Part shown: positions 9,705 through 28,622 of the stretch, one piece after another
Position numbering within the stretch: the first letter of the stretch is position 1
How the letters are laid out: the number at the start of each line of letters is the position of its first letter
From: Escherichia coli
Lineage (GTDB): Bacteria; Pseudomonadota; Gammaproteobacteria; Enterobacterales; Enterobacteriaceae
Length of the DNA: 64,000 nucleotides
Assembly (NCBI RefSeq): GCF_003790525.1
Contig: NZ_CP033635.1
Direction: 5' to 3' (one strand)
Notes under the pieces: model-generated
Databases searched by the model: none
What the model was told of the DNA's origin: nothing
Seen by the model: only the letters and a program-made list of their open reading frames with translations
Translations under genes and position numbers: made by a program

Positions 9705-12563
9705 TTAACCCTCCGCTCCGGTGATAACAGCAATTACCTGAATGTAGGGTTCTTTTTCAGTCGTCATGGTGTCCTCAATCCATTCGATATAGCTGTCAAA
9801 ATTGTGTTCGATTTCGCGTTGTCTCTGCTCTTTACGGCTCTGCTTAACTGACAATTGCTGTTTGTTATCGGCAAAATCCAGCTCAAGTTGGCTCAACTGC
9901 CGCCCACGCAAAACGTCCAGCTTTTGCAGATGCTCATTCAGTTGCTGGTTAATGTGCGTTTCAAACGCATTCCGATCATGGATGAATACCTCCCGGGCAT
10001 GAGCAATAGCCGCTTCCAGTAAATCCTGCTGGCGCTGGTGATTACGATCTTTACCGCCGCTGTTAGTCAGCTTGTTACTCAACTGCGGATGACGTTGTAA
10101 AAACTCAGCAAATGGCTGACTGCCGATTAGCGATTCACGGTTAAAGCTCACCACTATCCACGGGTTCACCATCGGATGTGATTTACGGTTCGGGAATAAC
10201 CCGGAAAGAATGAAGTGATCTTCATCGGGTTCAAGCAGGTATGGCAGACGGATAACCGGTGCCTGATGACGACCAAAAGCCGAAGAGATTTTATCGTCCA
10301 GCCACTGCACTACCGGGTTGATTTGCCAGAGATACTGCACATCGGGCCAGGCATGTTGCTCACCGCGAGCGCGTGCAATCGCGTCGGTGATGACGGTTTT
10401 ATCCTGACTTAAATAGAGCTGCCAGTTCTCCGGCGCGATTTCAGGCGGTAGCTGATTGAAGCGGCGGCGTAACTCCTCCGGCGCCACCAGCGACAAGGTA
10501 TTATCAGGCAAGGTTTCATACTGGATAGTTTGACCACTGGCTTTCAGGTAACCCAATGCTCTTTCGCAGTACGCCTGTTCGCTGGCAAACAAGCTGGTGT
10601 CTGTTTCGGTGACCATTGAGGCATCGCTGGAAACCGCACTGCATATTTCGCCAAACAGATCATGTTCGGCGCTTTCCGAGACGTTGCTGTTCAGCAGTTG
10701 ATCAAACAGGCTGGCACCATCATCCTGCATCATGAACTCTGCAACCTGCTCTTCTTCCTCTTCCTGGGTAAATTTGCCGGTAAACTCCGAACTGTCCCCA
10801 ATGTTCTTCTGCGCCTGTTCGTCTTTGTTGATCAACACTTCCAGTACGCGCATATCGCCATTGATCTGCGGTTCGCTGGCCTCGGTAAGCAGATAGCGGA
10901 TTTGAGGCTGATGTTTTTGCCCATAGCGGTCAATACGCCCGTTACGTTGCTGGAATACCATCAACGACCACGGAATATCAAAGTGAATCATTTTGTGGCT
11001 AAGGTGATGCAGGTTGATCCCTTCAGATGCCACATCCGAACAAACCAGAAGACGCAACGGCGACTGCGTTTTACCAAAGGCTTCTACGGTTTCCATCAAC
11101 ACCGTATCGCCCTGATCGCCGCGCAGCGTGGCGATCTGATCATCTTTCAATTTCAGATCCGCTCGCAGTTGCTGTTCGAGGAACTCCAGCGTTTTAATGC
11201 TTTCAGTGAAGATCACCAGGCGATCTTCCGTGTTATTGGCTTTCCAGGCGAGGTCTTTTCGGATGGTGTCGAGCAGCAACTGGTATTTGCTAAACTGGCT
11301 GGCATCAATGTTATTCAGCGCCAACAGCAATGACTCCAGTTCGTTGATCTGGCTCTGGCTATTATGATCTTTACGGCTCTCAAGACGCTTCAGACGATTA
11401 GCCACTACGCTGGCACACGCCATCGGGCTGGAAAATAGCGCTTTTTCGAGGGTTATCTTGAACAGACGACCTTTGTTAGACTGGGCCTGTTCATCGTCAT
11501 CATCACGGAACTGACTCTCAACCAGGCGACGGTATGCTTCTTCTTCGGCACCGGATGCCAGGCGAGTCAGTTTGACAATATTGCGCTCGGGGAACTCGCC
11601 GGACATCTGATCTTTCACGTCTTTTTTGAAGCGACGGACAACCAGATTTTTATCGGCAAAGTCGGCGTATTCATACTCTTTCGGGTTGGCGATCGCCGTC
11701 GGGTCAAGCATGTTCATCAGGCTGGCAAAACTTTCAGCCTTACCATCATGCGGCGTCGCTGAAAGCATAATCAGCGTATCGCTACGCCCGGCGAGCAGTT
11801 TTGCCAGTTTACTGCGTAACGAACTGGTTCCACGTTCTGCGACGTTATGGGCCTCATCAATGACAATAATATCCCACCAGGCATTTTCCAGATGGTGACG
11901 ATATTCAATGTCTTGTTTCAGCGTATCGATGGAGATAATGGTCTTGTCAAAATAGTGAAACGGGTTGTGGTTGGTAGGGATGCGGTTACGCACCTTTTGT
12001 AAACCAGCAGAATCCAGGCGGGTCAATGGGATCGCAAAACGGCTCCAGAACTCCTTCTGGAATTGTGTCAGCATCGATTTAACCGCCAGAACCAGAATAC
12101 GTTTTCCGCGCCCACGACGGATCAGCTCCGAAACCAGAATACCGGCTTCCAGCGTTTTACCCAGACCGACAGCGTCGGCAATGAGTATCCGCTGGCGCGG
12201 CTGTGCCAGAGCCATCCGCGTAGGGTCGAGCTGAAACGGCATGGAATCCATCGCCGCCAGATGACCAAAATGGACTTTACTGTCTGTCGGTACGCGTTGG
12301 CGTAACTGACTTTCGATATACAACTGCGCCGCCTGATAATTGGCGGATTCATCTTCCACCAAATGCGTTTTTGCGGGATCCAGGATCTCTACTTTTTGTT
12401 CCAGTTTGGTCAGAAATAACCCTTCTTTACCGCGCACAAGCTCTGAAATACCATCGCAGGTCAGCAAATACCCACCATCACCACTGTCATCCGCCCGGCG
12501 AATACGCCATTCGGCATCACGAATAACCACCCGCATACCAGGTGCATAATTTTGCTTATTCAT
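9705..12563 (-). CDS. drmD: SNF2-family helicase (DrmD-like)
   Basis: 952 aa ORF with motif I ADAVGLGKT, motif II IIVIDEAHN and the C-terminal helicase motif QRNGRIDRYGQ. First gene of a three-gene minus-strand operon. Confidence 0.65.
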   Translation of the reverse strand: MNKQNYAPGMRVVIRDAEWRIRRADDSGDGGYLLTCDGISELVRGKEGLFLTKLEQKVEILDPAKTHLVEDESANYQAAQLYIESQLRQRVPTDSKVHFGHLAAMDSMPFQLDPTRMALAQPRQRILIADAVGLGKTLEAGILVSELIRRGRGKRILVLAVKSMLTQFQKEFWSRFAIPLTRLDSAGLQKVRNRIPTNHNPFHYFDKTIISIDTLKQDIEYRHHLENAWWDIIVIDEAHNVAERGTSSLRSKLAKLLAGRSDTLIMLSATPHDGKAESFASLMNMLDPTAIANPKEYEYADFADKNLVVRRFKKDVKDQMSGEFPERNIVKLTRLASGAEEEAYRRLVESQFRDDDDEQAQSNKGRLFKITLEKALFSSPMACASVVANRLKRLESRKDHNSQSQINELESLLLALNNIDASQFSKYQLLLDTIRKDLAWKANNTEDRLVIFTESIKTLEFLEQQLRADLKLKDDQIATLRGDQGDTVLMETVEAFGKTQSPLRLLVCSDVASEGINLHHLSHKMIHFDIPWSLMVFQQRNGRIDRYGQKHQPQIRYLLTEASEPQINGDMRVLEVLINKDEQAQKNIGDSSEFTGKFTQEEEEEQVAEFMMQDDGASLFDQLLNSNVSESAEHDLFGEICSAVSSDASMVTETDTSLFASEQAYCERALGYLKASGQTIQYETLPDNTLSLVAPEELRRRFNQLPPEIAPENWQLYLSQDKTVITDAIARARGEQHAWPDVQYLWQINPVVQWLDDKISSAFGRHQAPVIRLPYLLEPDEDHFILSGLFPNRKSHPMVNPWIVVSFNRESLIGSQPFAEFLQRHPQLSNKLTNSGGKDRNHQRQQDLLEAAIAHAREVFIHDRNAFETHINQQLNEHLQKLDVLRGRQLSQLELDFADNKQQLSVKQSRKEQRQREIEHNFDSYIEWIEDTMTTEKEPYIQVIAVITGAEG

Positions 12564-12642
12564 CGGTTTTTCTGTCTATTTGGGGCAGTGGCGGTAACGT
12601 CATCCTGAAAAATGTGGCGCGGCACACTGCGATAAAAAAGAG

Positions 12643-12667
12643 GGCCTTAAAGATATCATGAAGGCCC
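12643..12667 (-). terminator. Candidate intrinsic terminator between the druE-like gene and the SNF2 operon
   Basis: Perfect 7-bp inverted repeat GGGCCTT-N12-AAGGCCC, followed on the minus strand by CTCTTTTTTAT. Confidence 0.4.
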
Positions 12668-12786
12668 CCGGCAAAGTGACAAAATGGGAGGGAATGCGCA
12701 TAATTTGCGCATGATTTTCAAACAAAAATTATTAAAAAGTGAGCTGGGTCAACTCCCCTGGAAGATATCCTCAGGGGAGCAATTAT

Positions 12787-15700
12787 TTATCCAGCGATAA
12801 TATAACTCCTAAGGTCATTACCCGGGGCAACAGCTCGCGCTCGCGTGTTTGCCAGCCGTTCAACTTGCTGCGGTACTCGTAGAGCAAAATCAAAGAAGGT
12901 GTCTTCAATACAGCGCCAGTAGCTAAGCCCCATGTCGAGCAGGACATAATGCTGACTGCCATCGCTGAAGGTGACTGTCAGTTCTCGTCCATGCTCCGTA
13001 CTCTGGTTATCCCCCGTTAACCAGCTAATTGCTCCCAGCCACGCTGGCCCCAGATATCCTTCTTCAAGTAAAGTGGTCACAACCTGCTGACGATCTTCCT
13101 CATTAAGCCACGCGTTATAGAGAGCGTCGTGTTGGCGAGAGTTGTAATCCAATTTTTTGACGCAAACAGTGAGGCTGGCGCGTTCCGCCATTCCCTGTTC
13201 AACCAGCTCAGTTAAGATTTCACCTAACAAACGCGCCGTGAATGGGCTATTAAGATAACGATCGCTGTACTCAACATGCGTTATCTCTTTGTGGCGGGTA
13301 AATGCCTGCTTCCAGCCAGCGTGCTGTTGCGTGACTAACGACCAGAAACGCGAACCAAAACCTTCCAGCGGCCCGTCCAGTTGTTCGCAGAGATTGATGC
13401 GCACCGCCCCGGTGGGTAAGGCGGGCAGTAAATCTTCTGCACTTAAGATCTGACCCAAGAAGGTTTTTCCGGACGTTCCTTTAAGTGTCACTACTGGTGA
13501 AGACGCACTTTGTCCCCATAATTCACCAGGTGCAACGGTAGCGCTGTCGTCTGCGGCCCACTGTTGGCTTTGCCCTTCGCGAGTCACCTGCGCAAGCCAG
13601 CGTCCCTTTCCTTGCATGAGTTGCGCAGTGGCAATGGATTTCACTTGTAAGCGTCCTCCCGGCATCGCCGCCAACGCGGAAAGCTGATGTCTGGAGCTAT
13701 CAGTTAAGTTTGCCAACGGCGTGGCCACCAGCAACTCAACATGCCCACCGGAGGAGGCAAACTGGAGCAACTCTTTAAATAATGGCCATTGGGCAAAATC
13801 CCACTGTTCCTGCGGCCCCGCAAGAACCAGCGAGCAGGAGTCATAAATCTCGCTGTTCAGGCATTGCGCAATACGTAAACTCAGCGGGTTAGTTTCAACC
13901 CGGCTACCATCGCCGAAGTACTGATATTCTGGCGCGAGGTTAAGTCGCTGCAACCGTACATTGGTAAGCAGGGTTAATGCATGGTGACGATCTAATCTGT
14001 TGACATAATGCTGACTGTCGTAGCTGAGCAAGCAGTGGTGACAGAATTTATCGCAACTGCAATCGAGCAATTTTCTGGCGTAATTAAAGACATCAGCCCA
14101 ATGGTCGATCAATTGCACTGCATAACCTGCACCACCCGCATTATTGTCGTAAATGAAGATGGAATATCCGGTATAGCCATTGATATCGCGCGCTTGCTGC
14201 GTCGTCACGCCCAGCTCAGTATTTTCGATACCCAATTTATGCGCTAACCCTTCACGCAAAGCGACCGCAAGGGATCGCGCGGCAACCTCATCACGGATCA
14301 ACAGGCCATTATCATCATTGAGTTGCAGCTCAACCATATCTGTACGACTGCTATACCCCAACCACAGATCTTTATGCACATGACCGTGGCACAATTTATT
14401 GCTCCCCTGACGATCGTTACTGCCCCCTCGCAACAGGTAATGCGTATTTTCCCTCTCTGGGTTCTTAAGATTTTCAGGGGTACGCTGGGGTTGATTTTGA
14501 GATTCTGCCCGACCACATGAGAGGCAAATTGCGTAGCCGTGCCCAAATTCCCCTTCACTGAAGTGGAACAATTCCCCACTATGGCTAAAACGGTAACGTC
14601 CTAGCCCAGCATCGGGTAAAGAAACCCACACCGAAGACGGTACAAGAACACGTGGATCTTTCCAGGGAAGTTGTGCAGGCATGGATACATCATTATGCGC
14701 CTGATAACGGATATCTGTCGCAAAACCAACAGGCTGTAAATAACGCTTCACATCAAGTTGCTGTATATCCGCTTTGCAGTGACTACATTCGACAGGACGG
14801 GTAGTACTGGTTGCCCCCGCACCACATTTACGACAATGCCAGAACCACGGAATATGATGATCGCCTGACAGCTCCTGCCCGCTGGCAAGTACCTTGCCAA
14901 GCATAATGCCCGAGGAACGATATACTTTTCCGCCCAATACCACATCTGCACCTGGAGCATACTCGCGTAATGCTGTAGGCAAATCACGGCTGGGCAATTT
15001 TTCAATACGACGAGAAAAGCTTTCTCCCCCTTCATTAGGGTCAGCCTGAGTGGCTTTTATTGCGCGACGTTTTTCCAGCTCATCTGCCGTCAGATAATTG
15101 AAATTGACGACGCCAACCGGGAAACCATGCCCCGGCAGGAACGCTTCACTAATGAGTTTAGAAAACAGATATGCACCGCGATAATCACGAAGCTGATAAG
15201 CGATGGCTTTACCTGCTGGCGTTTCTTCCCACGCGCTGTTATCCGCCTTCAACGCTTCGATATTTTCCAACAGTATCGCAAGTTGGCTTCTCCAGCGGAT
15301 ATCAACCTGCTGCATCATTGCTTGTGTGCGGGTCAAGAGCTGGGTTGCCGTCAATGACATCAGGACGGTTCCCTGAGTAAGGCGTTTAAGTTTATCCGCC
15401 AGCTGATCGGCCTGGTTATTTAACCAATGGAGAAAACGAAGACACTGGCTCTCATCACCTTCAAAGAACCATTTGCAACTCAGTTTTGTCGCATCAGGAA
15501 CTTCAGCTCGTAAAAACAGACCTAAAACCAGGGCATTAACATGTCGTTGAACAATACTGCTGCTCCCAAAACGAACCCGTGGCGCACTGGCAGTAGTGTT
15601 GAACGCCCAGAGGGGGTCTTTGAATACCTCCATTCCATGCGCCGTGTTTTTACATAACGTAATGGCAGCAGATGCACTCTCTCCACGTCGACCCGCGCGG

Positions 15701-18700
15701 CCTGCACGCTGCAAATAATTTGCCGGAGCTGGAGGAACGTTGTTCATTGCCACCAAACTCATACCACCAATGTCCACCCCCATCTCCATGGTCGTGGAGC
15801 AGTTCAGCACATTAACTTTGCCTGACTTAAATTGTTTTTCATTAAACTGGTTCTGCTCAGGCGTTCTCTGCGCAGAGTGTTCCTCCAGACGATACCAGCT
15901 ATCTTTCAGGGCCAGTCGGTCGCTGCGAGTAGACCATAATCCTTCCTCGCGGGCATGTTGAATCAGCGCATTACTTTCCAGCCACTCCAGACGTTCTTCT
16001 CGGGCGATTTCTCCACCACCAGACAAACGCCAGTGACGTACAGGAAGCTCAGGCATTTCAATCAACACTGCTTTTTCAGGTGCAATTTCTTTGCTACCCG
16101 GCAAATACGGAGAGTATCCCAGTAACGTGACGTCTAACGCACGTCGAGTATAGGGGCAACGCCACACTTGCTTTGGACTGTAAAATTCAGCTTGTTGTTT
16201 AATATCCAGCTGATAACCCGACTCAAACTGACGTAAGCAGGGTCGAATTGCATCCCAGACCTCAATCATTAAGTGGTTAACTAACGATTTCCAGTGAGCC
16301 TGCTCAGGTTGTATTGCCGGAAAGACTGCAATTAATAGCTTAATGACCCGGTTATAATGGCGATCGCGTATTTGTGGCCAAAGTTGATCACGTTTCTGCC
16401 CTTTGTTTTTTTTATCTGGACCCTGGAGCATTTTTACCGGGAAACGAGCCCCCATCCAGCGAGGGTATTGCTCGTTTTCGTAAAAAACGGCACTGTTTTC
16501 ACGTATAAAGAAATCAAGAGTAATCTTCAATAAATTACGCCATTCCGCTAATTGCTTATCGGGATCGGGTAATAATGTCTTCCAGTCCTGCGGGCAGGTT
16601 GTAACTTTATCAATAAATGGATAGTGAATGGCTACCAGACCCAGACTTTCGAGGGTCCAGGCATTTTTAGGGCGGCGACCAAACTCACTGTATAAACAAA
16701 AATCTGCAAACTGTTGTTTAGTAAGATCAAGCCCAGACAATTCTTTAAAACTGCCTCTCATTCTATCGGCAAGGTCCACACTGCCAACCAGCTGTTCAGA
16801 CAGTGTTTGCCATGACATGGTTTTCTTCTGCTGATTGCCAGAGTTAGCCTGGAGTATTTGCATCGCTTCAGCATGATCCGGGCTTAAGGAACTCACCATC
16901 GGCTCGATAATTTTAAGTGCCTGAATGTCCGCCGGGCTAAGCTCTTCATTAGCAACCATCGCTTTTTTCAGCGCGTCAATAGAGTTTTTTAAAGGAAGGA
17001 TAGAAAACTGGGTAATAAAACTCTCTAACAATGCGCAGTGTGCCGGGCTGAGCTTTGCTGATGGCTCATTAATATTGGCCAACTCCTGGTAACAAAGAGC
17101 TCGCAACGTCGCTTTATCGGCATCCTGCTGTAAGCGGGCAGAAATGCGGGCAGTGCCCTGACGTGAATCCGTAAAGGTGAGCAGACGTCGACCATTAAAC
17201 GGTCCTAACTGCTCTTCTCTTGTCTGCGGTAATGGTGAAAACTCCAGCAGAGTAGGAATAATTTCATTTAAAAAAAAGGGCGCGCCAAGTCGAAGCGGAC
17301 GGAATAAAGGATTATTTTTTCGTTGGGTGTCACCACAGCAAACACAAGCAAAGGAATTATTACGTCCCTCACCTCGAGATTCCGGTCTTAACAGGTTTAT
17401 TTCATAGTGCTTTTGCGCTTCACTATCAATTTTCCCCGCCGTCGTTTCTTCCAGAGAAATGATATATTTTTCACCATCGATCGCAATCAGACGATCAAAT
17501 TGAGAGTTATTGTCTAATTCGTCGTTGTCTTCATCTTCAGAATAAACATCTACATCAAGAGCAAATTCATCCACTTCGGCAGCGGCGGGTTGCGCTACCA
17601 ACCAGTTCGTTCCATCACCGCGCACCTCCTCTTTGGCAGACAAATAAGCTGAACCACACCCGGAGCAACGTAAAACTTCAAATACCGGCGCACCACAGTC
17701 ACAATATTGGCGCTGCTCAAACCATACCTGACCAAATGGCCAGTCACTCTGATTTAATTCATGCGCTTTATGTGAGCATTGTTTGTTTGAACATGCCCAT
17801 AGACCCGCCAGTGTTCTGATAAACCCATGCATACGTAATGGCGTAAAAGCCAGTTCACCTTCTCGCGATCTCGCCATTAGGTCGAGGAGTTGCAGTAACT
17901 CACGGTGATTAATATCTGGCCAGGTTCTTCTGGCAACATTGAGCAACTCACTCAAACGTACTGCCTGCCGTCCGGGATGAGTTAACGCCTGACGCAATTG
18001 CTGGGCCACACGGTAATGACAAAGCTGTTGGTAAAGATCCTGAGGGCTCAAAGATTTAAGAGAAGTTAAAGATGTGGGATATTCATGACGAATCAGCGAC
18101 TCCGATACCCGCGGTATTTGTCGATAGCCGCGAACCACTTTGACATCACGTTCTGTAACGCCCGCGAGATCAGCGACAAATTTAGCAAGCTCCTTATTAC
18201 CTTCAGGAGAGTCTTCACCAATAGTGGCAGAGGTCGCGATAATCTGCACAGGTTTATCTGTGCCCGGTCCAACATTGAAAGCCTGCATAACACGACGTAA
18301 AAGCAGCGCTAACTCAGCAGCCTGAGAACCAATATAACTATGGGCTTCATCCAGGACGATATACTTTAACATCCCCTGAGACTTTTCGATGATTGGGGCA
18401 TCTTTACGACGAATCAGCATATATTCCAGCATGGTGGTATTCGTCACCATGATGGAAGGTGGTGCTTCGTAAATGGCTTCCCGACTCAAAGCTTGTTCAG
18501 GTACTTTCAACTGATCTTCCTGAACTTCGTATTTGGTATGCCGGGTTTCGCCATTATATAGCGCGAAGCGTATTTTCCCCTTAAATCCGCGCGTCCATTC
18601 GCGAAGCCGCTCCTGTTGGCTGTTAATTAATGCATTTAACGGATACAAGAAAATAGCTTGTGTCCCTGTTAGTGACTGACGGGTCGATTTTTGCTGACGA

Positions 18701-19110
18701 ATAAGATCTTCCAGAACCGGTACCATAAAGCATTCTGTTTTCCCGGATCCCGTACCGCTGCTCACTAACAAGGATTTTTTGTCTTCCAGAATCGTTCGCC
18801 ACGCCGTAAGTTGATGACGAAATGGCACCGGCGCTTTGCTCAATGCATCAACCAGCGGGCTGGAAATTAGCTTGTCCCGCAAATCCTCCATTGTTTCATC
18901 CGCAGGCATCCAGCCGAACGTGCTTTCGAATACCGGGTCTGCAAGCAGTGACCCCTCCTGACCGGGAGGCTGGAAATATTGTGATTCCAGATAATGAGTC
19001 AACGACTTGCTCCGCAATGCCAACTGACTTACCACCGACCTCACCGCGCGCTGATGAAGCTGATTTAGAAGTGGCGCATAATGCAGTTGCTGAACGTCCA
19101 TCAATGACAT
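12787..19110 (-). CDS. druE: DruE-like large helicase (Druantia type III-like)
   Basis: 2107 aa ORF with Walker A SSGTGSGKTECFM, DEAH-type box VLDEAHSY and a C-terminal Cys-rich region (CLSCG..., CSCDKFCHHC). Overlaps the upstream gene by 10 nt. Confidence 0.6.
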   Translation of the reverse strand: MSLMDVQQLHYAPLLNQLHQRAVRSVVSQLALRSKSLTHYLESQYFQPPGQEGSLLADPVFESTFGWMPADETMEDLRDKLISSPLVDALSKAPVPFRHQLTAWRTILEDKKSLLVSSGTGSGKTECFMVPVLEDLIRQQKSTRQSLTGTQAIFLYPLNALINSQQERLREWTRGFKGKIRFALYNGETRHTKYEVQEDQLKVPEQALSREAIYEAPPSIMVTNTTMLEYMLIRRKDAPIIEKSQGMLKYIVLDEAHSYIGSQAAELALLLRRVMQAFNVGPGTDKPVQIIATSATIGEDSPEGNKELAKFVADLAGVTERDVKVVRGYRQIPRVSESLIRHEYPTSLTSLKSLSPQDLYQQLCHYRVAQQLRQALTHPGRQAVRLSELLNVARRTWPDINHRELLQLLDLMARSREGELAFTPLRMHGFIRTLAGLWACSNKQCSHKAHELNQSDWPFGQVWFEQRQYCDCGAPVFEVLRCSGCGSAYLSAKEEVRGDGTNWLVAQPAAAEVDEFALDVDVYSEDEDNDELDNNSQFDRLIAIDGEKYIISLEETTAGKIDSEAQKHYEINLLRPESRGEGRNNSFACVCCGDTQRKNNPLFRPLRLGAPFFLNEIIPTLLEFSPLPQTREEQLGPFNGRRLLTFTDSRQGTARISARLQQDADKATLRALCYQELANINEPSAKLSPAHCALLESFITQFSILPLKNSIDALKKAMVANEELSPADIQALKIIEPMVSSLSPDHAEAMQILQANSGNQQKKTMSWQTLSEQLVGSVDLADRMRGSFKELSGLDLTKQQFADFCLYSEFGRRPKNAWTLESLGLVAIHYPFIDKVTTCPQDWKTLLPDPDKQLAEWRNLLKITLDFFIRENSAVFYENEQYPRWMGARFPVKMLQGPDKKNKGQKRDQLWPQIRDRHYNRVIKLLIAVFPAIQPEQAHWKSLVNHLMIEVWDAIRPCLRQFESGYQLDIKQQAEFYSPKQVWRCPYTRRALDVTLLGYSPYLPGSKEIAPEKAVLIEMPELPVRHWRLSGGGEIAREERLEWLESNALIQHAREEGLWSTRSDRLALKDSWYRLEEHSAQRTPEQNQFNEKQFKSGKVNVLNCSTTMEMGVDIGGMSLVAMNNVPPAPANYLQRAGRAGRRGESASAAITLCKNTAHGMEVFKDPLWAFNTTASAPRVRFGSSSIVQRHVNALVLGLFLRAEVPDATKLSCKWFFEGDESQCLRFLHWLNNQADQLADKLKRLTQGTVLMSLTATQLLTRTQAMMQQVDIRWRSQLAILLENIEALKADNSAWEETPAGKAIAYQLRDYRGAYLFSKLISEAFLPGHGFPVGVVNFNYLTADELEKRRAIKATQADPNEGGESFSRRIEKLPSRDLPTALREYAPGADVVLGGKVYRSSGIMLGKVLASGQELSGDHHIPWFWHCRKCGAGATSTTRPVECSHCKADIQQLDVKRYLQPVGFATDIRYQAHNDVSMPAQLPWKDPRVLVPSSVWVSLPDAGLGRYRFSHSGELFHFSEGEFGHGYAICLSCGRAESQNQPQRTPENLKNPERENTHYLLRGGSNDRQGSNKLCHGHVHKDLWLGYSSRTDMVELQLNDDNGLLIRDEVAARSLAVALREGLAHKLGIENTELGVTTQQARDINGYTGYSIFIYDNNAGGAGYAVQLIDHWADVFNYARKLLDCSCDKFCHHCLLSYDSQHYVNRLDRHHALTLLTNVRLQRLNLAPEYQYFGDGSRVETNPLSLRIAQCLNSEIYDSCSLVLAGPQEQWDFAQWPLFKELLQFASSGGHVELLVATPLANLTDSSRHQLSALAAMPGGRLQVKSIATAQLMQGKGRWLAQVTREGQSQQWAADDSATVAPGELWGQSASSPVVTLKGTSGKTFLGQILSAEDLLPALPTGAVRINLCEQLDGPLEGFGSRFWSLVTQQHAGWKQAFTRHKEITHVEYSDRYLNSPFTARLLGEILTELVEQGMAERASLTVCVKKLDYNSRQHDALYNAWLNEEDRQQVVTTLLEEGYLGPAWLGAISWLTGDNQSTEHGRELTVTFSDGSQHYVLLDMGLSYWRCIEDTFFDFALRVPQQVERLANTRARAVAPGNDLRSYIIAG

Positions 19111-22100
19111 ACTCCTGCTTGTTCAAAATAATATTGATAGATTACCCCTAATTGCTGCGGGGCTTGCTGATAGTGGAATTCAAAAAGCGCAGACAGTTGA
19201 TGTATCAAGTTATTATCTTTTTGGGTTAACAGCGCTGCGACTAACATCAAATTAAAACGTTTTTCAAGCCGTGAGTGATATTTATTTTTAATCCAAAGCT
19301 TATTAAAAACAGATTTTAACTCTGGAGTAATCGCACTAGACCAAAGTTCTTTAGGGAAGATACTGATACGCCCAAAGCTGTCGGGGTTCCTTAATAGCAT
19401 CTGTTTAGCTTCATTAAACTGCTCACGACTAACAGTTGGCAAGACATTACAACCGGCTGGTAGGAGTTTGCTATATGTAAGTAACATATTCGCAATGGGA
19501 GCCAGACGACGATCGATATGTGCACGATGGTTCATAAAAGCAATAAAGGGTTGCAATATATGTAATGCTAATGTTTTATCGTTAATCTGTTTTTCCAGAT
19601 AAGCCCAACACTTTTGAAAAACATCTTTCCAGATTGAAACGGGAATCCATCCCCATGAAAAGGGTAATTCTTCCTGTATATCATAAATCGTATCGCTATC
19701 ACCAGAAAGACATGATGATATTAACAACTGAACAACTACGCGGTAATTACTCGAAATACCTCTGAACAAATCCAGATCCAGCAAGGATAAGCCATTATTC
19801 ATTTTGTATTTCTTAATATACTCCGTTAATAAACAGCAATAATTTTGCAAAGGATTGTTATCTATTTCAAAAATTAGCTCATTAAAATATTTTTTTCGCT
19901 GTTCGGAATCCGCTTCGCATAGAGCATTAAGTAATAAATCATTTGTCTGTAATACAGGTAGCCCCCATTTAATTACTGGTGCAATGCGAGCTGTACCATC
20001 AAGTTTCCCCACAATTAACCATGGGCTATCCTGAACATTCAGAGCTGAAAGATCATAAGCAAATTCATCTTTTTTTAGCAACGATATGTGTAAGCCAGGA
20101 TCCTTAAGAGAAATAGCATCAACAACCAGCTCGTCTATTCTATTTGCAGGAAAAACAACAGAATTTTTTATATCAACCAGTAACCCTTGATCGTGTTCAA
20201 TAAAACTACCATCGTAGCGTTTAATACTGAGTGTTGCTTTATCCTTTCCAAATCTGTCAGAGTAAAAATCAACACATAATGTACTATTGCTGCTCCATGC
20301 ACATGCCAGCATAGCATTTAGCAAATTATAGTTCTCATAAAGTGAAATTTGTTTTAATTTGTCATTGCATCCTGATAAAAGAGGAAGGTCGGCATGTAAA
20401 TAACGGAATTTTTCAGCTACTGGATTTTCATCCAACAACTCGATATTAAGATATCCTCTTCCAGCACAAGATATGGTTAACAACTCAGCATCTATTCCAT
20501 GCAAATGCGCTATAGATGCCACACCATCAAAATGAACAGAACCATCATGAGTTACAAATCGGCCACCGCTAACCGGCTTAGGTAATAATAGTTTAAGATT
20601 AGAACCATCTTTCCAGGAGACCCGTAAATCAACGGTATTTTCCAGCATCTCCGATGAATTATAATAAATAGCACACTCGTTTTGTGAATAATCGGACTTA
20701 AGTGTTACTTTTTCATTGTTTGAATATTTGTCAATTCTAGTATCCGTTATACCAGAAAGCATTATGATGCCTTGCTGAGCACTCTCAGGTATAATATTAA
20801 TATCGAAGTCAGCTGGTAAAACTACAACTTTACCGCTAAATAAAACCTCATCATTAACTATTCGTCTGACTTCTATCTGTCCTTTTGGCATTTTTGATGC
20901 GACAGAATACCAGGCATTGTTACCTGAACGAATGGAACGCCAAAAAAGTTCTTTCTCCGGTACAATGCCATATTGCAGATCCTTTTTCCAACCGATCTTC
21001 GGCCAGGCTCGATGGACAGGATAATCCGATTTAACCAGTTCAACTTCTGTCGATTTAATATAATATTCAATCGCAGAATCATAAAGTTGCTGGGTGCGAA
21101 TTGTACAAACTGCACCATCATGTAAAACAACGCTAAATACTCCACTTATTTTAGTTAAGCTGCGTTCACTGTTTTTCAGCAACCTTGGGATATCAAACTC
21201 ACCTTCTCCACTAATATCTAAATGGCTATTTTTCGGTAGCGAAATAAACAGAGCATTTAGCCTGGAACTCACAGACCCCATACCGACAAGTTTTAGCTGC
21301 GATTCACTCTCATTCATCGCTTCAAAAACCCAGGGGAGTTCTTCAGTAAGTTCATAACCGCCTTTTGGAATTGTGTGGCCTAACAGAATTGGACCTTCAT
21401 GAAGCGACAACGAGATTTCGGCCATTGCATCTGCACCAGAGAGCTTTTGCATCGCAATAGGTAATAACTCGACCCGCCAATCTTGCTGCTCATAACGGCT
21501 TAGCATTGCCAACCTTGCCCCGCCATTTCTCCATTTTCCTGAAATGATGAGTCGGGTCTGCTCCGGCTGAATATTGCATTCAAACAAAGAGGTTAACTGT
21601 TCTGTACGCATTGTGGCCGGGAATCGGAACCGGGCATCACAATACCAACTGTCATCAACATCGACCCAGATTCTTTCAACCTGAAGACTACTTGCACTGC
21701 GTATTTCAGAAGATTGAGAAAGTAATCGCCTTACAATCTCTGCAGCATTCGCTTCGGGGAGAACGAGTGGAAGTTGAAGGTGCCAGTCTGGAGAGAGCTT
21801 ACGTAATGCAGAAACGGGATCACTGCTTTGAGGTGGATGCTCACTAAGTAATCGGCAGAGAGTCTCGCAGAATTCACCGGCTATTTCATAGACCAGTTCG
21901 TTTTGCATTGTGACAGGAATCGTATCGCCTAATTCTTGTGCAATTTTAGCGGCAGGATATTGAGATGCTTGCCCACGAAGCGCCTGATATATCCTTCTGA
22001 AATAGGTAATCAAATAACCGCTCTCATTTTCAATCATGCGGATAGGTAAACCACCTTCACAAGCCAGTGTATGCAGATAACCCGAAGCTTGCCCCAGGTT

Positions 22101-22460
22101 TCTTATCTTTCTTTTCCAGTAGCGAATGCCATCATTAACCAGCTTCTGTCGATGAACATACGGAACTTTCCAGTCAATAGAATCTAAAATTGTGTCCCAT
22201 TTAGGGTGTCCGACCGTATGAGTCCGGCGGATAAACTCTGCGGCATATATGCTAAATAGAACATCGCTATAGGAAATGAATATCGTTCTTGGATAACTAC
22301 GGGGGGCATATGTACGCAGTAGTTCTGCCAAACTTTCGTACTCTGTATCAGTACAACGGTAAGCATATAACGCCCGTCCATCAGCTCCGGATAATGAACG
22401 GCGACTAAAAAACATGTTAAGCCATTGCAAAAGTGGGTTAACTGGAGTTTTCACAAGCAA
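19101..22460 (-). CDS. druH: Large protein of unknown function, DruH-like (partner of DruE)
   Basis: 1119 aa ORF immediately upstream of and overlapping the DruE-like gene, AT-rich. Assignment is by size and context only; no catalytic motif recognised. Confidence 0.45.
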   Translation of the reverse strand: MLVKTPVNPLLQWLNMFFSRRSLSGADGRALYAYRCTDTEYESLAELLRTYAPRSYPRTIFISYSDVLFSIYAAEFIRRTHTVGHPKWDTILDSIDWKVPYVHRQKLVNDGIRYWKRKIRNLGQASGYLHTLACEGGLPIRMIENESGYLITYFRRIYQALRGQASQYPAAKIAQELGDTIPVTMQNELVYEIAGEFCETLCRLLSEHPPQSSDPVSALRKLSPDWHLQLPLVLPEANAAEIVRRLLSQSSEIRSASSLQVERIWVDVDDSWYCDARFRFPATMRTEQLTSLFECNIQPEQTRLIISGKWRNGGARLAMLSRYEQQDWRVELLPIAMQKLSGADAMAEISLSLHEGPILLGHTIPKGGYELTEELPWVFEAMNESESQLKLVGMGSVSSRLNALFISLPKNSHLDISGEGEFDIPRLLKNSERSLTKISGVFSVVLHDGAVCTIRTQQLYDSAIEYYIKSTEVELVKSDYPVHRAWPKIGWKKDLQYGIVPEKELFWRSIRSGNNAWYSVASKMPKGQIEVRRIVNDEVLFSGKVVVLPADFDINIIPESAQQGIIMLSGITDTRIDKYSNNEKVTLKSDYSQNECAIYYNSSEMLENTVDLRVSWKDGSNLKLLLPKPVSGGRFVTHDGSVHFDGVASIAHLHGIDAELLTISCAGRGYLNIELLDENPVAEKFRYLHADLPLLSGCNDKLKQISLYENYNLLNAMLACAWSSNSTLCVDFYSDRFGKDKATLSIKRYDGSFIEHDQGLLVDIKNSVVFPANRIDELVVDAISLKDPGLHISLLKKDEFAYDLSALNVQDSPWLIVGKLDGTARIAPVIKWGLPVLQTNDLLLNALCEADSEQRKKYFNELIFEIDNNPLQNYCCLLTEYIKKYKMNNGLSLLDLDLFRGISSNYRVVVQLLISSCLSGDSDTIYDIQEELPFSWGWIPVSIWKDVFQKCWAYLEKQINDKTLALHILQPFIAFMNHRAHIDRRLAPIANMLLTYSKLLPAGCNVLPTVSREQFNEAKQMLLRNPDSFGRISIFPKELWSSAITPELKSVFNKLWIKNKYHSRLEKRFNLMLVAALLTQKDNNLIHQLSALFEFHYQQAPQQLGVIYQYYFEQAGVCH

Positions 22461-26354: not shown

Positions 26355-26853
26355 ATGAATAAAGCAATAACGGTGCTTGCTATAATGATGGCTTCATTTT
26401 CCGTAAATGCGTATGTATTACCGGAAACGCCTGTGCCATTTAAAAGTGGTACCGGAGAAATTGATAACAACACTGTCTACATTGGTTTAGGTAGCGCAGG
26501 TACGGCATGGTACAAGCTGGAGAAACAGACCAAAGATAAAAAAATGGACAGCGTTAGCTGCATTTCCTGGTGGACCGAGAGATCAAGCAACCTCTGCATT
26601 TATTGATGGCAATCTGTATGTGTTTGGCGGCATTGGCAAAAACAGCGAGGGCTTGACTCAGGTATTTAATGACGTACACAAATACAACCCCAAAACCAAT
26701 AGCTGGGTTAAATTGATGTCGCACGCGCCGATGGGCATGGCGGGTCATGTGACATTTGTACACAACGGCAAGGCTTATGTTACTGGCGGTGTTAACCAGA
26801 ATATCTTCAACGGCTATTTTGAAGATCTTAACGAAGCTGGAAAAGATTCAACA
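26355..26853 (+). pseudogene. nanM: nanM (N-acetylneuraminate epimerase, Kelch repeat) remnant: frameshifted and 3'-truncated
   Basis: N-terminal signal peptide and Kelch-repeat sequence closely resemble E. coli NanM. The frame breaks in the A8 run at about 26541-26548 (nanM-like sequence continues in another frame), and similarity ends after ...NEAGKDST at about 26853. Confidence 0.7.
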
Positions 26854-26971
26854 TACCGAACGCCGGAGAACTGGACGACGACACCACGAAGCAGTCATTT
26901 CAGTCGGGGGATGATTGTAGACAAATTTGTTGACGCTATTTTGCGGTTTTGGCGTGAAGGGTGAGCATTCA

Positions 26972-27613
26972 TTAATTTGCATCCATCAACGCTTTTAACT
27001 GCTCCGGCGAAAACGGTGGTTTGCGTCGGTGCAACATCGCATGGCAATTAGGGCACACAGGAAGCAAATCATTAACTGGATCCAGCTGGTAATCCTCTTT
27101 AATGGCTGAAAGCGGCACCAGGTGATGCATATGGATAAAACCCTCAGCGATATCGCCATAGATCTTCACCAGATCAACGCCGCATACGTTGCACTGGCAT
27201 CCATGATGTTCGACCGCTTTATCTCGGGCCTTTTTATCGCGTTCATAGCGGTTTACTGTCACCTTTATCGCCGCACCTTCAACGTATGTCTCCTGCGACG
27301 GCAACTCATCCGGGAACAGAACGTCGGCTATGGGAGCCGCAGCGGCTTTATCCTGATGAATATGAAATCCCTGCTCTATGAGTAGTTTGACGCATTTAGA
27401 TTTTATTCCGCCGGTGAAATCCGCAGGGGTAAATTGCGTCCCCGTCATCAATGTCGCTGCGATGCCAGCAATCGCCTTCGAGGGGTAACGTCGGCCATGA
27501 TATTCAATCTTATACAACCGCGCAGGCTGGAACTGATGAGTTTCTCCCGCATCCCATAAATGGATAGCTTCGATGATATACCGCCGCGGAAGATGATCGG
27601 GGAGTTTATTCAT
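26972..27613 (-). CDS. HNH endonuclease-domain protein with unassigned N-terminal domain
   Basis: 213 aa ORF with C-terminal HNH-type motif CQCNVCGVDL...HMHHLVPL...PVCPNCHAMLH. Divergent from the next gene. Confidence 0.5.
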   Translation of the reverse strand: MNKLPDHLPRRYIIEAIHLWDAGETHQFQPARLYKIEYHGRRYPSKAIAGIAATLMTGTQFTPADFTGGIKSKCVKLLIEQGFHIHQDKAAAAPIADVLFPDELPSQETYVEGAAIKVTVNRYERDKKARDKAVEHHGCQCNVCGVDLVKIYGDIAEGFIHMHHLVPLSAIKEDYQLDPVNDLLPVCPNCHAMLHRRKPPFSPEQLKALMDAN

Positions 27614-27692
27614 GGAGAATGTCCTTATACGTTCTCAGAACAGGCAGCAAAAAAACAAATGAGATCAAGGTAATATATCTTCACTTGCAGGC

Positions 27693-28622
27693 TTGAACAG
27701 CAGAAAATTTGCGAGCATGATCGCAACTATTTCACTGCCAGGGATATCAATGGCTTCCAGTAAATCGCTACAGCAGGCAATCGCCAATATAAAAATCTGG
27801 CACAAGGGTGAACAGCGCGCGCCGCATAAACCATTGTTACTGCTATACGTATTAGCGGGATACCTGAATGGGCATCCGCGCCTTTTCGATTATGGATTGG
27901 AAATCTACGAACCTCTGCACAATTTACTGGAACGTTTTGGGCCACAGCGTTCACAGTACCGACCTGATATGCCGTTCTGGCGATTACAAGGCGACGGATT
28001 CTGGCAATTACACAATGCCGAGCTTTGCTCAACAGCAGGGAGCAGCCGACAACCGCCAGTGAAGGAACTGAACGAATACCACGTTGCAGGCGGTTTCGAT
28101 GAACAGCACTACGCCCTGGTAACCGGCAATAAAAAACTCATCAATACTCTGGCGCAACAGATACTCGAAGCGCACTTCACCGAGAGTATTCAGGAAGAAA
28201 TTGCTGACGAGCTGGGTTTTGATCTCCAGCAAATCCGTAAACAGCGTGACCCGTTATTTCGCAAAAATGTATTACGCGCTTATAACTACCAGTGCGCGAT
28301 ATGTGGCTTTAATATGCGCCACGACGACACCACCGTCGCGCTGGAAGCGGCGCATATAAAATGGAAACAGCACGGCGGTCCTTGTGAAATTCCTAATGGC
28401 CTGGCGCTTTGCGCAATTCACCATAAAGCCTTTGATAAAGGATCGATTGGCCTGGATGAAAATATGCGGGTACTGGTCTCGGATGCGGTAAACGGCGGAG
28501 GGATCGTTGAGAGATTATTCTGGGATTTTGATGGGAAAACTATTGCGTTGCCACAGGTGCGTAAAAATTACCCTTTTGAGGGGTTTGTGGAGTGGCATCG
28601 AAAAGAGGTTTTTAGGGGGTGA
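27693..28622 (+). CDS. HNH endonuclease-domain protein with unassigned N-terminal domain (candidate modification-dependent nuclease)
   Basis: 309 aa ORF with C-terminal HNH-like motif YQCAICGFNMRHDDTTVALEAAHIKW...LALCAIHHKAFD. The N-terminal roughly 180 aa are of unknown fold. Confidence 0.5.
   Translation: MNSRKFASMIATISLPGISMASSKSLQQAIANIKIWHKGEQRAPHKPLLLLYVLAGYLNGHPRLFDYGLEIYEPLHNLLERFGPQRSQYRPDMPFWRLQGDGFWQLHNAELCSTAGSSRQPPVKELNEYHVAGGFDEQHYALVTGNKKLINTLAQQILEAHFTESIQEEIADELGFDLQQIRKQRDPLFRKNVLRAYNYQCAICGFNMRHDDTTVALEAAHIKWKQHGGPCEIPNGLALCAIHHKAFDKGSIGLDENMRVLVSDAVNGGGIVERLFWDFDGKTIALPQVRKNYPFEGFVEWHRKEVFRG

What the first reader, a model, noticed from the sequence alone, without database searches (positions are those of the whole stretch)
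26972..28622. Divergent pair of HNH nuclease genes with unassigned N-terminal domains
Seen in sequence: two HNH-motif proteins (213 aa on the minus strand, 309 aa on the plus strand) transcribed divergently from a 79-bp intergenic region, each with a roughly 120-180 aa N-terminal domain I cannot assign. Inference: architectures of a sensor domain plus HNH are typical of modification-dependent (type IV) restriction enzymes. Their position between Zorya and Wadjet supports a defence role, and they may act independently or as a pair.
Basis: partly seen in the sequence, partly recalled or inferred. Interest (0 to 1): 0.6.

Follow-up and report, generated by a model that had tools for sequence, protein, structure and literature searches.

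The report
Two back-to-back modification-dependent HNH nucleases
The two divergent genes are a near-identical copy of a known E. coli restriction enzyme that cuts sulfur-modified (phosphorothioate) DNA, plus an uncharacterised nuclease whose small N-terminal domain has no known function; they sit together but seem to work independently.

Summary
The window is the E. coli SMS-3-5 chromosome. Both ORFs are intact and both N-terminal domains can now be assigned.

- **Plus-strand gene.** It most likely starts at ATG 27750 (290 aa), not TTG 27693 (309 aa). It is a sulfur-binding-domain (SBD) + HNH enzyme: NCBIfam NF045808, 437 bits against a cutoff of 180. It is 98% identical to the syntenic ORF of E. 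coli W, which I infer to be EcoWI, a characterised enzyme that cuts GpsAAC/GpsTTC phosphorothioate DNA.
- **The pairing is optional.** Of 5426 complete E. coli genomes, 325 keep both genes, 913 only head-HNH and 1381 only SBD-HNH. E. coli W keeps a 105-nt head-HNH remnant. The divergent pair recurs in Citrobacter and Klebsiella. K. aerogenes adds a third gene, Mrr_N-HNH.

Verdict: two autonomous type IV-style nucleases, one essentially known and one a new member of a known kind.

An invariant 18-bp palindrome upstream of SBD-HNH remains unexplained.

The parts
26972..27613 (-). head-HNH gene (213 aa; RefSeq WP_001037975.1 'HNH endonuclease'): ScoMcrA_N head domain + linker + McrA-type HNH
   Evidence: ORF; annotation; Pfam HNH; PF26345+PF01844 precomputed on homologues; RBS AAGGA upstream of the ATG
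27350..27613 (-). coding region of the head domain (residues about 1-88; alpha-beta-beta-alpha-alpha-beta)
26975..27253 (-). coding region of the HNH nuclease domain (residues about 121-213) with its conserved pre-HNH segment
   Evidence: Invariant C141, C144, H163, H164, C187, N189, C190, H191, H195 in 22 homologues; phmmer to EcoKMcrA 6GHC residues 199-269
27614..27749 (.). 136-bp divergent intergenic spacer
   Evidence: no strong sigma-70 consensus found
27709..27726 (.). palindrome TTGCGA-GCATGA-TCGCAA, invariant upstream of SBD-HNH genes; candidate operator overlapping a weak promoter (TTGAAC 27693-27698, 17-nt spacer, CATGAT 27716-27721)
   Evidence: Identical in 9/9 aligned upstream regions from 6 genera. 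Exact in 16 fetched loci; 1 mismatch in most others and in decayed loci. Single site in the window.
27750..28622 (+). SBD-HNH gene (290 aa; WP_000168557.1 'phosphorothioated DNA-binding restriction endonuclease'); allele of the E. coli W ORF inferred to be EcoWI
   Evidence: NF045808 436.7 bits vs cutoff 180; 6/290 differences from the E. coli W orthologue; annotation
27762..28229 (+). coding region of the sulfur-binding domain (residues about 5-160)
   Evidence: phmmer to ScoMcrA SBD 5ZMO E 2.1e-7, with H25-K26-P27 aligned to H116-R117-P118; PF26340 on cluster representatives
28293..28457 (+). coding region of the HNH_2 nuclease core (residues 182-236: C182xxC185, H202, N216, C221xxH224, H225)
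   Evidence: Pfam HNH_2 E 1.3e-9; motif positions

Best explanation
These are two autonomous, single-polypeptide, modification-dependent (type IV / IIM-like) HNH restriction endonucleases. They are encoded back to back in an old enterobacterial cassette at the nanS-proximal edge of an E. coli defence hotspot.

Gene 2 (27750-28622) is an EcoWI-type enzyme. By homology to EcoWI and ScoMcrA, its N-terminal sulfur-binding domain docks on an Rp-phosphorothioate in GpsAAC/GpsTTC. The protein dimerises, and the C-terminal HNH cuts both strands a few bases away (N7/N6 for EcoWI) using Mg2+. This destroys incoming DNA that carries Dnd-type backbone modification.

Gene 1 (26972-27613) is predicted to be an active HNH nuclease. 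Its only other module, the roughly 88-aa ScoMcrA-type head domain, is inferred to supply DNA or target engagement for a different, still unknown, feature of foreign DNA.

Neither enzyme needs the other. Adjacency reflects common descent within a cassette of HNH enzymes with different sensor domains: head, SBD and Mrr_N.

Shown here: domain identities, intact catalytic residues, orthology to the E. coli W ORF, and the distribution. Inferred: that the W ORF is EcoWI, the PT specificity of this allele, and any activity or target of head-HNH.
For: SBD-HNH identity:
- NF045808 full-length match at 436.7 bits against a cutoff of 180.
- SBD homology to ScoMcrA structures 5ZMO/5ZMM/5ZMN.
- PF26340 + PF13391 on cluster representatives.
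- 98% identity to the syntenic E. coli W ORF, 290 aa and 33.3 kDa, against 33.4 kDa reported for EcoWI.
- EcoWI biochemistry, and in vivo restriction when cloned alone (PMC7461809).

Head-HNH identity:
- phmmer hit to the ScoMcrA head.
- PF26345.
- Zn-Cys4 and His residues invariant in 22 homologues.

Head domain and its HNH module belong to type IV architectures:
- Head co-occurs with EVE, SRA, DUF3427, McrB AAA and NOV_C.
- The same HNH module is fused to dozens of other N-terminal domains across phyla.

Independence:
- E. coli genomes: both genes in 325, head-HNH only in 913, SBD-HNH only in 1381, odds ratio 0.72.
- E. coli W has only a 105-nt head-HNH remnant.
- SBD-HNH stands alone in Salmonella, Buttiauxella, E. 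hormaechei, Lelliottia and Kluyvera.
- Head-HNH stands alone in an E. coli ICE, in Shewanella and in Atlantibacter/Pseudescherichia.

Cassette ancestry: K. aerogenes has head-HNH, SBD-HNH and Mrr_N-HNH together.
Against: - No experiment exists for this allele or for any head-HNH protein.
- The ScoMcrA authors call the head domain 'of unknown function'. They describe it as flexibly attached and not among the domains making dimer contacts.
- In most proteins the head accompanies another reader domain. It may therefore be an accessory module rather than a sensor.
- The SBD has M73-P74 where ScoMcrA has the sulfur-contacting Y164-P165. The E. coli W orthologue shares this.
- In head-HNH the 'N' position of the HNH motif is occupied by D182.
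- The same divergent arrangement persists in three genera in different genomic contexts. That is also what a functional pair would show.
- The E. coli counts reflect a few clonally inherited deletions, not many independent events.
- Identification of the E. coli W ORF as EcoWI rests on the enzyme's name, length and mass. The paper gives no accession.
Confidence: 0.7

Rival explanations
1. The two genes form one functional system. Head-HNH would be an accessory or partner of SBD-HNH, for example a hetero-oligomer, a second-strand nickase, or a regulator of PT-dependent cleavage, co-regulated from the shared spacer.
For: The divergent arrangement with a 130-180-bp spacer is conserved in E. coli, two Citrobacter species, K. 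quasipneumoniae and K. aerogenes, in different genomic contexts. Head and SBD are fused in one polypeptide in ScoMcrA. Both proteins have diverged in parallel: about 65-70% and about 78-80% identity between genera.
Against: EcoWI restricts PT-DNA in vitro and in vivo on its own, and its native strain keeps only a remnant of head-HNH. Intact copies are not positively associated in 5426 E. coli genomes (odds ratio 0.72). Each gene occurs alone in several genera. The conserved palindrome goes with SBD-HNH whether or not the partner is present. The head domain is fused to many readers, and none of the 150 best head-domain representatives carries an SBD.
Confidence: 0.15
2. Head-HNH is not a modification-dependent defence enzyme. 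It could be a non-specific or structure-specific nuclease, a decaying relic, or a protein in which the head domain binds a protein or small ligand rather than DNA.
Against: The ORF is intact and all Zn and catalytic residues are invariant. The family is very large: more than 2500 proteins at 90% clustering, and 4007 head-domain clusters at 50%. Head-domain partners are overwhelmingly restriction-type modules. There are no viral homologues. The gene sits in defence islands next to other type IV genes.
Confidence: 0.15

Closest known systems
EcoWI (E. coli W), phosphorothioate-dependent SBD-HNH endonuclease (PMC7461809; PMC9521924)
   Same: Same architecture (SBD + HNH_2) and same length (290 aa). 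284/290 identical residues to the E. coli W ORF at the same chromosomal position next to nanCMS. Same upstream palindrome.
   Different: Six substitutions (L50S, N58S, G156R, H208Q, F276Y, G278V), none at Zn or catalytic positions. Here the neighbouring head-HNH gene is intact; in E. coli W it is a 105-nt remnant. That the W ORF is the published EcoWI is my inference, because the paper gives no accession.
ScoMcrA (S. coelicolor; PDB 5ZMM/5ZMN/5ZMO), head-SBD-SRA-HNH type IV enzyme (PMC6224610)
   Different: ScoMcrA has all its modules in one 561-aa chain, including an SRA domain that is absent here. In this window head and SBD sit on two separate HNH proteins with two different HNH subtypes (PF01844 and PF13391). 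ScoMcrA recognises GpsGCC and Dcm-methylated DNA and prefers Mn2+.
EcoKMcrA (PDB 6GHC) and the modular sensor-HNH enzymes (TagI, VcaM4I, ScoA3IV; PMC6765204, PMC7897488)
   Same: The HNH domain of the 213-aa protein aligns to McrA residues 199-269, with the same CxxC...HH...CPNCH layout. The same HNH module is fused to EVE-, SRA- and DUF3427-like N-termini in other phyla.
   Different: The sensor here is the head domain, for which no modified-base or backbone ligand is known. D182 replaces the motif asparagine.
Mrr_N (winged-helix)-HNH proteins / wH-HNH methyl-adenine-dependent enzymes (bioRxiv 10.1101/2023.06.07.544091)
   Same: A Mrr_N-HNH gene with the same HNH subtype lies directly downstream of SBD-HNH in Enterobacter sp. 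MGH24, C. portucalensis and K. aerogenes. It occupies the 'second HNH' role in the same cassette.

Membership tests
Phosphorothioate-dependent SBD-HNH restriction endonucleases (NCBIfam NF045808; EcoWI/SprMcrA type) | Full-length match to the curated family model above its cutoff | tested here: met
   436.7 bits against a cutoff of 180; profile positions 2-284 of 284
Phosphorothioate-dependent SBD-HNH restriction endonucleases (NCBIfam NF045808; EcoWI/SprMcrA type) | N-terminal DNA sulfur-binding domain homologous to the ScoMcrA SBD, with the sulfur-cavity residues (H-R/K-P and Y-P) | tested here: inconclusive
   Domain homology is met: 5ZMO E 2.1e-7, and PF26340 on 98-99% identical representatives. 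H25-K26-P27 is present. The Y-P position reads M73-P74, as in the E. coli W orthologue. The effect on sulfur binding cannot be judged from sequence.
Phosphorothioate-dependent SBD-HNH restriction endonucleases (NCBIfam NF045808; EcoWI/SprMcrA type) | C-terminal HNH with CxxC/CxxH zinc site and catalytic H-N-H | tested here: met
   Pfam HNH_2 E 1.3e-9; C182xxC185, H202, N216, C221xxH224, H225
Phosphorothioate-dependent SBD-HNH restriction endonucleases (NCBIfam NF045808; EcoWI/SprMcrA type) | Cleavage stimulated by phosphorothioate modification; restriction of dnd+ DNA | not testable with these tools
   Shown for EcoWI (PMC7461809). Transferred to this allele through 98% identity to the E. coli W ORF.
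ScoMcrA_N (PF26345) + HNH (PF01844) proteins | N-terminal domain homologous in sequence and fold to the ScoMcrA head domain | tested here: met
ScoMcrA_N (PF26345) + HNH (PF01844) proteins | Intact beta-beta-alpha-Me HNH with Cys4 zinc site | tested here: met
   Pfam HNH E 3.9e-4. C141, C144, C187, C190, H163, H164, H191 and H195 are invariant in 22 homologues. The motif 'N' position holds a nearly invariant D182.
Type IV (modification-dependent) restriction enzymes, as applied to head-HNH | A domain that binds modified DNA and makes cleavage modification-dependent | not testable with these tools
   The head domain has no known ligand. The only support is guilt by association with EVE, SRA, DUF3427 and McrB architectures.
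Type IV (modification-dependent) restriction enzymes, as applied to head-HNH | Solitary nuclease with no cognate methyltransferase in the cassette | tested here: met
   No methyltransferase is annotated between ZorE and JetD. The nearest one belongs to another system, upstream of the Druantia genes.
Obligate two-gene (paired) defence system | The two genes are co-retained and co-lost across genomes | tested here: not met
   E. coli: 325 both, 913 head only, 1381 SBD only, odds ratio 0.72. Each gene occurs alone in several genera.

The most novel reading that the evidence does not exclude
The ScoMcrA-type head domain is itself a previously unrecognised reader of a DNA feature: a modified base, a backbone modification, or a DNA structure. 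Head-HNH would then be a new specificity class of type IV restriction enzyme. The enterobacterial head-HNH / SBD-HNH / Mrr_N-HNH cluster would be a 'sensor battery' of three HNH enzymes. A further untested possibility is that the cluster is controlled through the invariant palindrome upstream of SBD-HNH.
Probability: 0.3. Interest if true: 0.55.

Novelty: new member of a known kind. Interest (0 to 1): 0.33.

Why it matters
The SBD-HNH gene adds nothing new in kind, because it is an allele of an enzyme already used as a reagent (EcoWI-seq). The survey does show three things about the locus:
- It is an ancestral E. coli locus, intact in about 31% of complete genomes.
- It is reduced to a 247-nt scar in K-12-type strains.
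- It carries a strictly conserved upstream palindrome that suggests regulated expression.

The head-HNH gene points to a very large, uncharacterised family: 4007 head-domain clusters at 50% identity. Its defining domain is known only as an unexplained appendage in one crystal structure. The 213-aa protein is the minimal architecture in which that domain can be studied alone. It is therefore a convenient entry point for finding what the head binds, and possibly a new modification-dependent reagent.

Tried and rejected
1. The 309-aa TTG start. Rejected in favour of ATG 27750.
2. Direct proof that the E. coli W ORF is EcoWI. Neither the paper nor its supplement gives an accession or sequence. I located the E. 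coli W locus myself and rely on name, length and mass.
3. Assigning the head domain to a known fold.
   - The viral structure library gives nothing.
   - The Pfam release behind profile_search lacks PF26345.
4. The 'Rosetta stone' argument that the head-SBD fusion in ScoMcrA implies a functional link. This is weakened by two results: none of the 150 best head-domain representatives contains an SBD, and the head is fused to many other readers.
5. A promoter scan of the spacer found no site at the tool's threshold. The weak promoter TTGAAC-17-CATGAT is my own reading.
6. The palindrome as an RNA hairpin. The Kluyvera variant changes both arms without keeping complementarity, so there is no support.
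7. The palindrome as a CRP site. The geometry resembles TGTGA-N6-TCACA, but its position 32 nt upstream of the ATG does not fit activation. Left unexplained.
8. Whether SMS-3-5 carries dnd or ssp genes elsewhere in its genome could not be checked with these tools.
9. A literature search for work on the head domain found only the 2018 structure paper.

Full report
**Observation**

The window is identical to E. coli SMS-3-5 (NC_010498.1, about 4.907 Mb, reverse strand). Both have HNH motifs (Pfam HNH E 3.9e-4; HNH_2 E 1.3e-9).

The plus-strand gene most likely starts at ATG 27750, giving 290 aa:
- The curated family profile begins at residue 25 of the 309-aa reading.
- RefSeq uses this ATG.
- An AGGGA ribosome-binding site precedes it.
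- In nine enterobacterial orthologues the ATG is conserved, while the sequence upstream carries frame-breaking indels.

The spacer is therefore 136 bp, not 79 bp.

**The plus-strand gene**

It scores 436.7 bits, end to end, against NCBIfam NF045808 'phosphorothioated DNA-binding restriction endonuclease', whose cutoff is 180. Its N-terminal 140 or so residues align to the sulfur-binding domain (SBD) of ScoMcrA (PDB 5ZMO/5ZMN/5ZMM, E 2e-7 to 1e-6). Cluster representatives that are 98-99% identical carry Pfam PF26340 (DNA-SBD_ScoMcrA) plus PF13391. The zinc and catalytic residues are present: C182xxC185, H202, N216, C221xxH224, H225.

I located the orthologue in E. coli W. It lies at the same position next to nanC-nanM-nanS, is 290 aa and 33.3 kDa, and differs at 6 of 290 residues.

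EcoWI is described as follows (PMC7461809):
- a 33.4-kDa SBD-HNH enzyme and a dimer in solution;
- Mg2+-dependent, cutting GpsAAC/GpsTTC at N7/N6;
- sufficient on its own plasmid to block transformation by dnd+ plasmids.

The paper gives no accession. Equating the W ORF with EcoWI is therefore my inference from name, length and mass.

**The minus-strand gene**

Residues 24-87 match residues 29-93 of ScoMcrA, the 'head' domain (phmmer E 3.8e-5). Homologues carry Pfam PF26345 (ScoMcrA_N) plus PF01844.

[quoted passage not shown] They describe it as flexibly attached, and it is not among the three domains that make dimer contacts (PMC6224610). I found no later work on it.

The C-terminal half is a McrA-type HNH and aligns to EcoKMcrA 6GHC residues 199-269. 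Across 22 homologues down to 43% identity, C141, C144, H163, H164, C187, N189, C190, H191 and H195 are invariant. The motif asparagine position holds a nearly invariant Asp (D182). The protein is therefore predicted to be an active nuclease.

**What the head domain keeps company with**

A profile of the head alone finds 4007 clusters (50% identity representatives) at E <= 1e-3, in proteins of 100 to more than 1000 aa.

Pfam scans of 106 of them give these counts:

| Pfam family | Members |
|---|---|
| HNH | 39 |
| HNH_2 | 20 |
| EVE | 12 |
| McrB-type AAA_5 | 7 |
| NOV_C | 7 |
| nSTAND3 | 6 |
| DUF3427 | 4 |
| SAD/SRA | 3 |
| MrcB_N | 2 |
| AspBHI_N | 1 |

Foldseek against AFDB50 shows the same partners. 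There is no viral homologue.

Conversely, the HNH module of this protein is fused to dozens of unrelated N-terminal domains across bacterial phyla.

The head is thus a module of modification-dependent restriction proteins. Because it usually accompanies a recognised reader domain, it may be an accessory rather than the primary sensor. In the 213-aa protein it is the only non-catalytic domain. Head domains are mostly basic (median pI 8.8) with conserved R41 and K46. That is compatible with nucleic-acid binding but does not prove it.

**Are the genes a pair?**

Evidence for linkage:
- The same divergent arrangement occurs in two Citrobacter species (L002, L003) and in K. quasipneumoniae (L086-L089), each in a different genomic context.
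- K. aerogenes has head-HNH divergent from SBD-HNH, followed by a third gene, Mrr_N-HNH (L106/L107).
- Enterobacter sp. MGH24 and C. portucalensis keep SBD-HNH followed, 10 nt later, by Mrr_N-HNH.

This looks like an old cassette of HNH enzymes with different sensor domains, from which members are lost.

Evidence against obligate partnership:
- SBD-HNH stands alone in Salmonella, Buttiauxella, E. hormaechei, Lelliottia and Kluyvera.
- Head-HNH stands alone in Atlantibacter, Pseudescherichia, an E. coli integrative element and Shewanella.
- In 5426 complete E. coli genomes, near-full-length head-HNH is in 1238, SBD-HNH in 1706, and both in 325. That is slightly fewer than the 389 expected under independence (odds ratio 0.72).

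Representative E. coli loci show the classes:

| State of the locus | Example strains |
|---|---|
| SBD-HNH intact, 105-nt head-HNH remnant | W, XJ6.1, 2015C-3108 |
| Head-HNH intact, SBD-HNH truncated | EC416 |
| Both decayed | TUM9754, E02 |
| Only a 247-nt SBD scar | K-12-like strains |

These counts reflect clonally inherited deletions rather than independent events. They still show that each gene persists without the other, and EcoWI works alone.

The fusion of head and SBD in ScoMcrA is weak evidence for a link. None of the 150 best head-domain representatives contains an SBD.

**Regulatory element**

The spacer is poorly conserved between genera, apart from one block. That block is an invariant TTGA (27693-27696) followed by the 18-bp palindrome TTGCGA-GCAT(G/C)A-TCGCAA (27709-27726), which ends 24 nt before the ATG of SBD-HNH.
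- The palindrome is exact in 16 fetched loci from six genera, with or without a partner gene.
- It has one mismatch in several other loci, including the two loci where the gene has decayed.
- It is unique in the window.

A weak promoter (TTGAAC-17-CATGAT) would place the palindrome over the spacer and -10 region, which is an operator-like position. No regulator gene is in the cassette. I could not identify a binding factor and I leave the element unexplained.

**Context**

The pair lies in a dense defence island. In window order the island holds:
- a large methyltransferase and a DrmD/BrxHII-like helicase;
- Druantia type III (DruE3, DruH3);
- Zorya type II (ZorA2/B2/E);
- a frameshifted nanM fragment;
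- the pair;
- a PDC-S11 PD-(D/E)XK candidate;
- Wadjet type III (JetD3, JetC3, JetA3).

The nanM fragment marks the ancestral chromosomal site of the pair, downstream of nanCMS.

**Verdict**

The type IV reading is supported: firmly for SBD-HNH, which is essentially a known enzyme, and by association for head-HNH, which is an uncharacterised member of a known class. The genes most likely act independently.

The residual novelty has three parts: the unknown role of the head domain, the three-member HNH cassette, and the conserved palindrome.

Noticed in passing
window 27693-27726: An invariant TTGA plus the 18-bp palindrome TTGCGAGCAT(G/C)ATCGCAA lies upstream of every enterobacterial SBD-HNH gene examined, whatever the neighbouring genes. 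It picks up mismatches where the gene has decayed. It is a candidate operator with no identified binding factor.
   Followed up: partly
L106 2260-4636 (Klebsiella aerogenes; also L107): A three-gene HNH cluster: head-HNH divergent from SBD-HNH, followed by Mrr_N-HNH. It unifies the head-HNH pairing seen in this window with the Mrr_N-HNH pairing seen in Enterobacter sp. MGH24 (L011 2264-3908) and C. portucalensis (L020).
   Followed up: partly
window 26355-26850; L092 5820-6216; L097 27973-29138: A frameshifted, truncated nanM fragment lies left of the pair. In other E. coli the pair sits directly downstream of nanC-nanM-nanS. K-12-type genomes keep only a 247-nt SBD-HNH scar next to the small protein gene ythB, then yjhR. 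The locus is an ancestral, widely decayed E. coli site at the edge of a variable defence hotspot.
   Followed up: partly
window 28734-29732 (-): A 332-aa PD-(D/E)XK/NucS-like protein matches the PADLOC candidate system PDC-S11 (E 9e-113). It follows SBD-HNH here and, as a frameshifted copy, in strain 2015C-3108 (L094 4094-5090). In other strains this position holds McrBC, BREX or a helicase instead.
   Followed up: no
window 9705-22460 and 29859-37731: Upstream lie Druantia type III (DruH3 19101-22460, DruE3 12787-19101), a DrmD/BrxHII-like helicase (9705-12563) and a very large methyltransferase. Downstream lies Wadjet type III (JetD3, JetC3, JetA3). The 298-aa gene in the JetB position (35366-36262) has no PADLOC hit.
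   Followed up: no
window 26895-26972 (-): RefSeq annotates a 25-aa 'hypothetical protein' abutting the stop codon of head-HNH. A 29-aa counterpart sits next to the head-HNH remnant in other strains (for example L091 5903-5992, L097 29049-29138). Its significance is unknown and it may be spurious.
   Followed up: no
L008-L081 (genome-contig loci): The HNH module of the 213-aa protein includes its conserved pre-HNH segment VEGxxxxVxVNRYERDxxAR. This module is fused to dozens of unrelated N-terminal domains of 70-1100 aa in cyanobacteria, Bacteroidota, Planctomycetota, Chloroflexota, archaea and others. Many of those domains are unannotated and could be a reservoir of candidate sensor domains.
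   Followed up: no
L103 4001-4654 (E. coli, ENA ERZ17811408): A second E. coli head-HNH paralogue (59% identical, seen on 565 contigs) lies on an integrative/conjugative-type element, next to TraI_2 and ArdC genes and with no SBD-HNH. The family therefore also travels on mobile elements.
   Followed up: no
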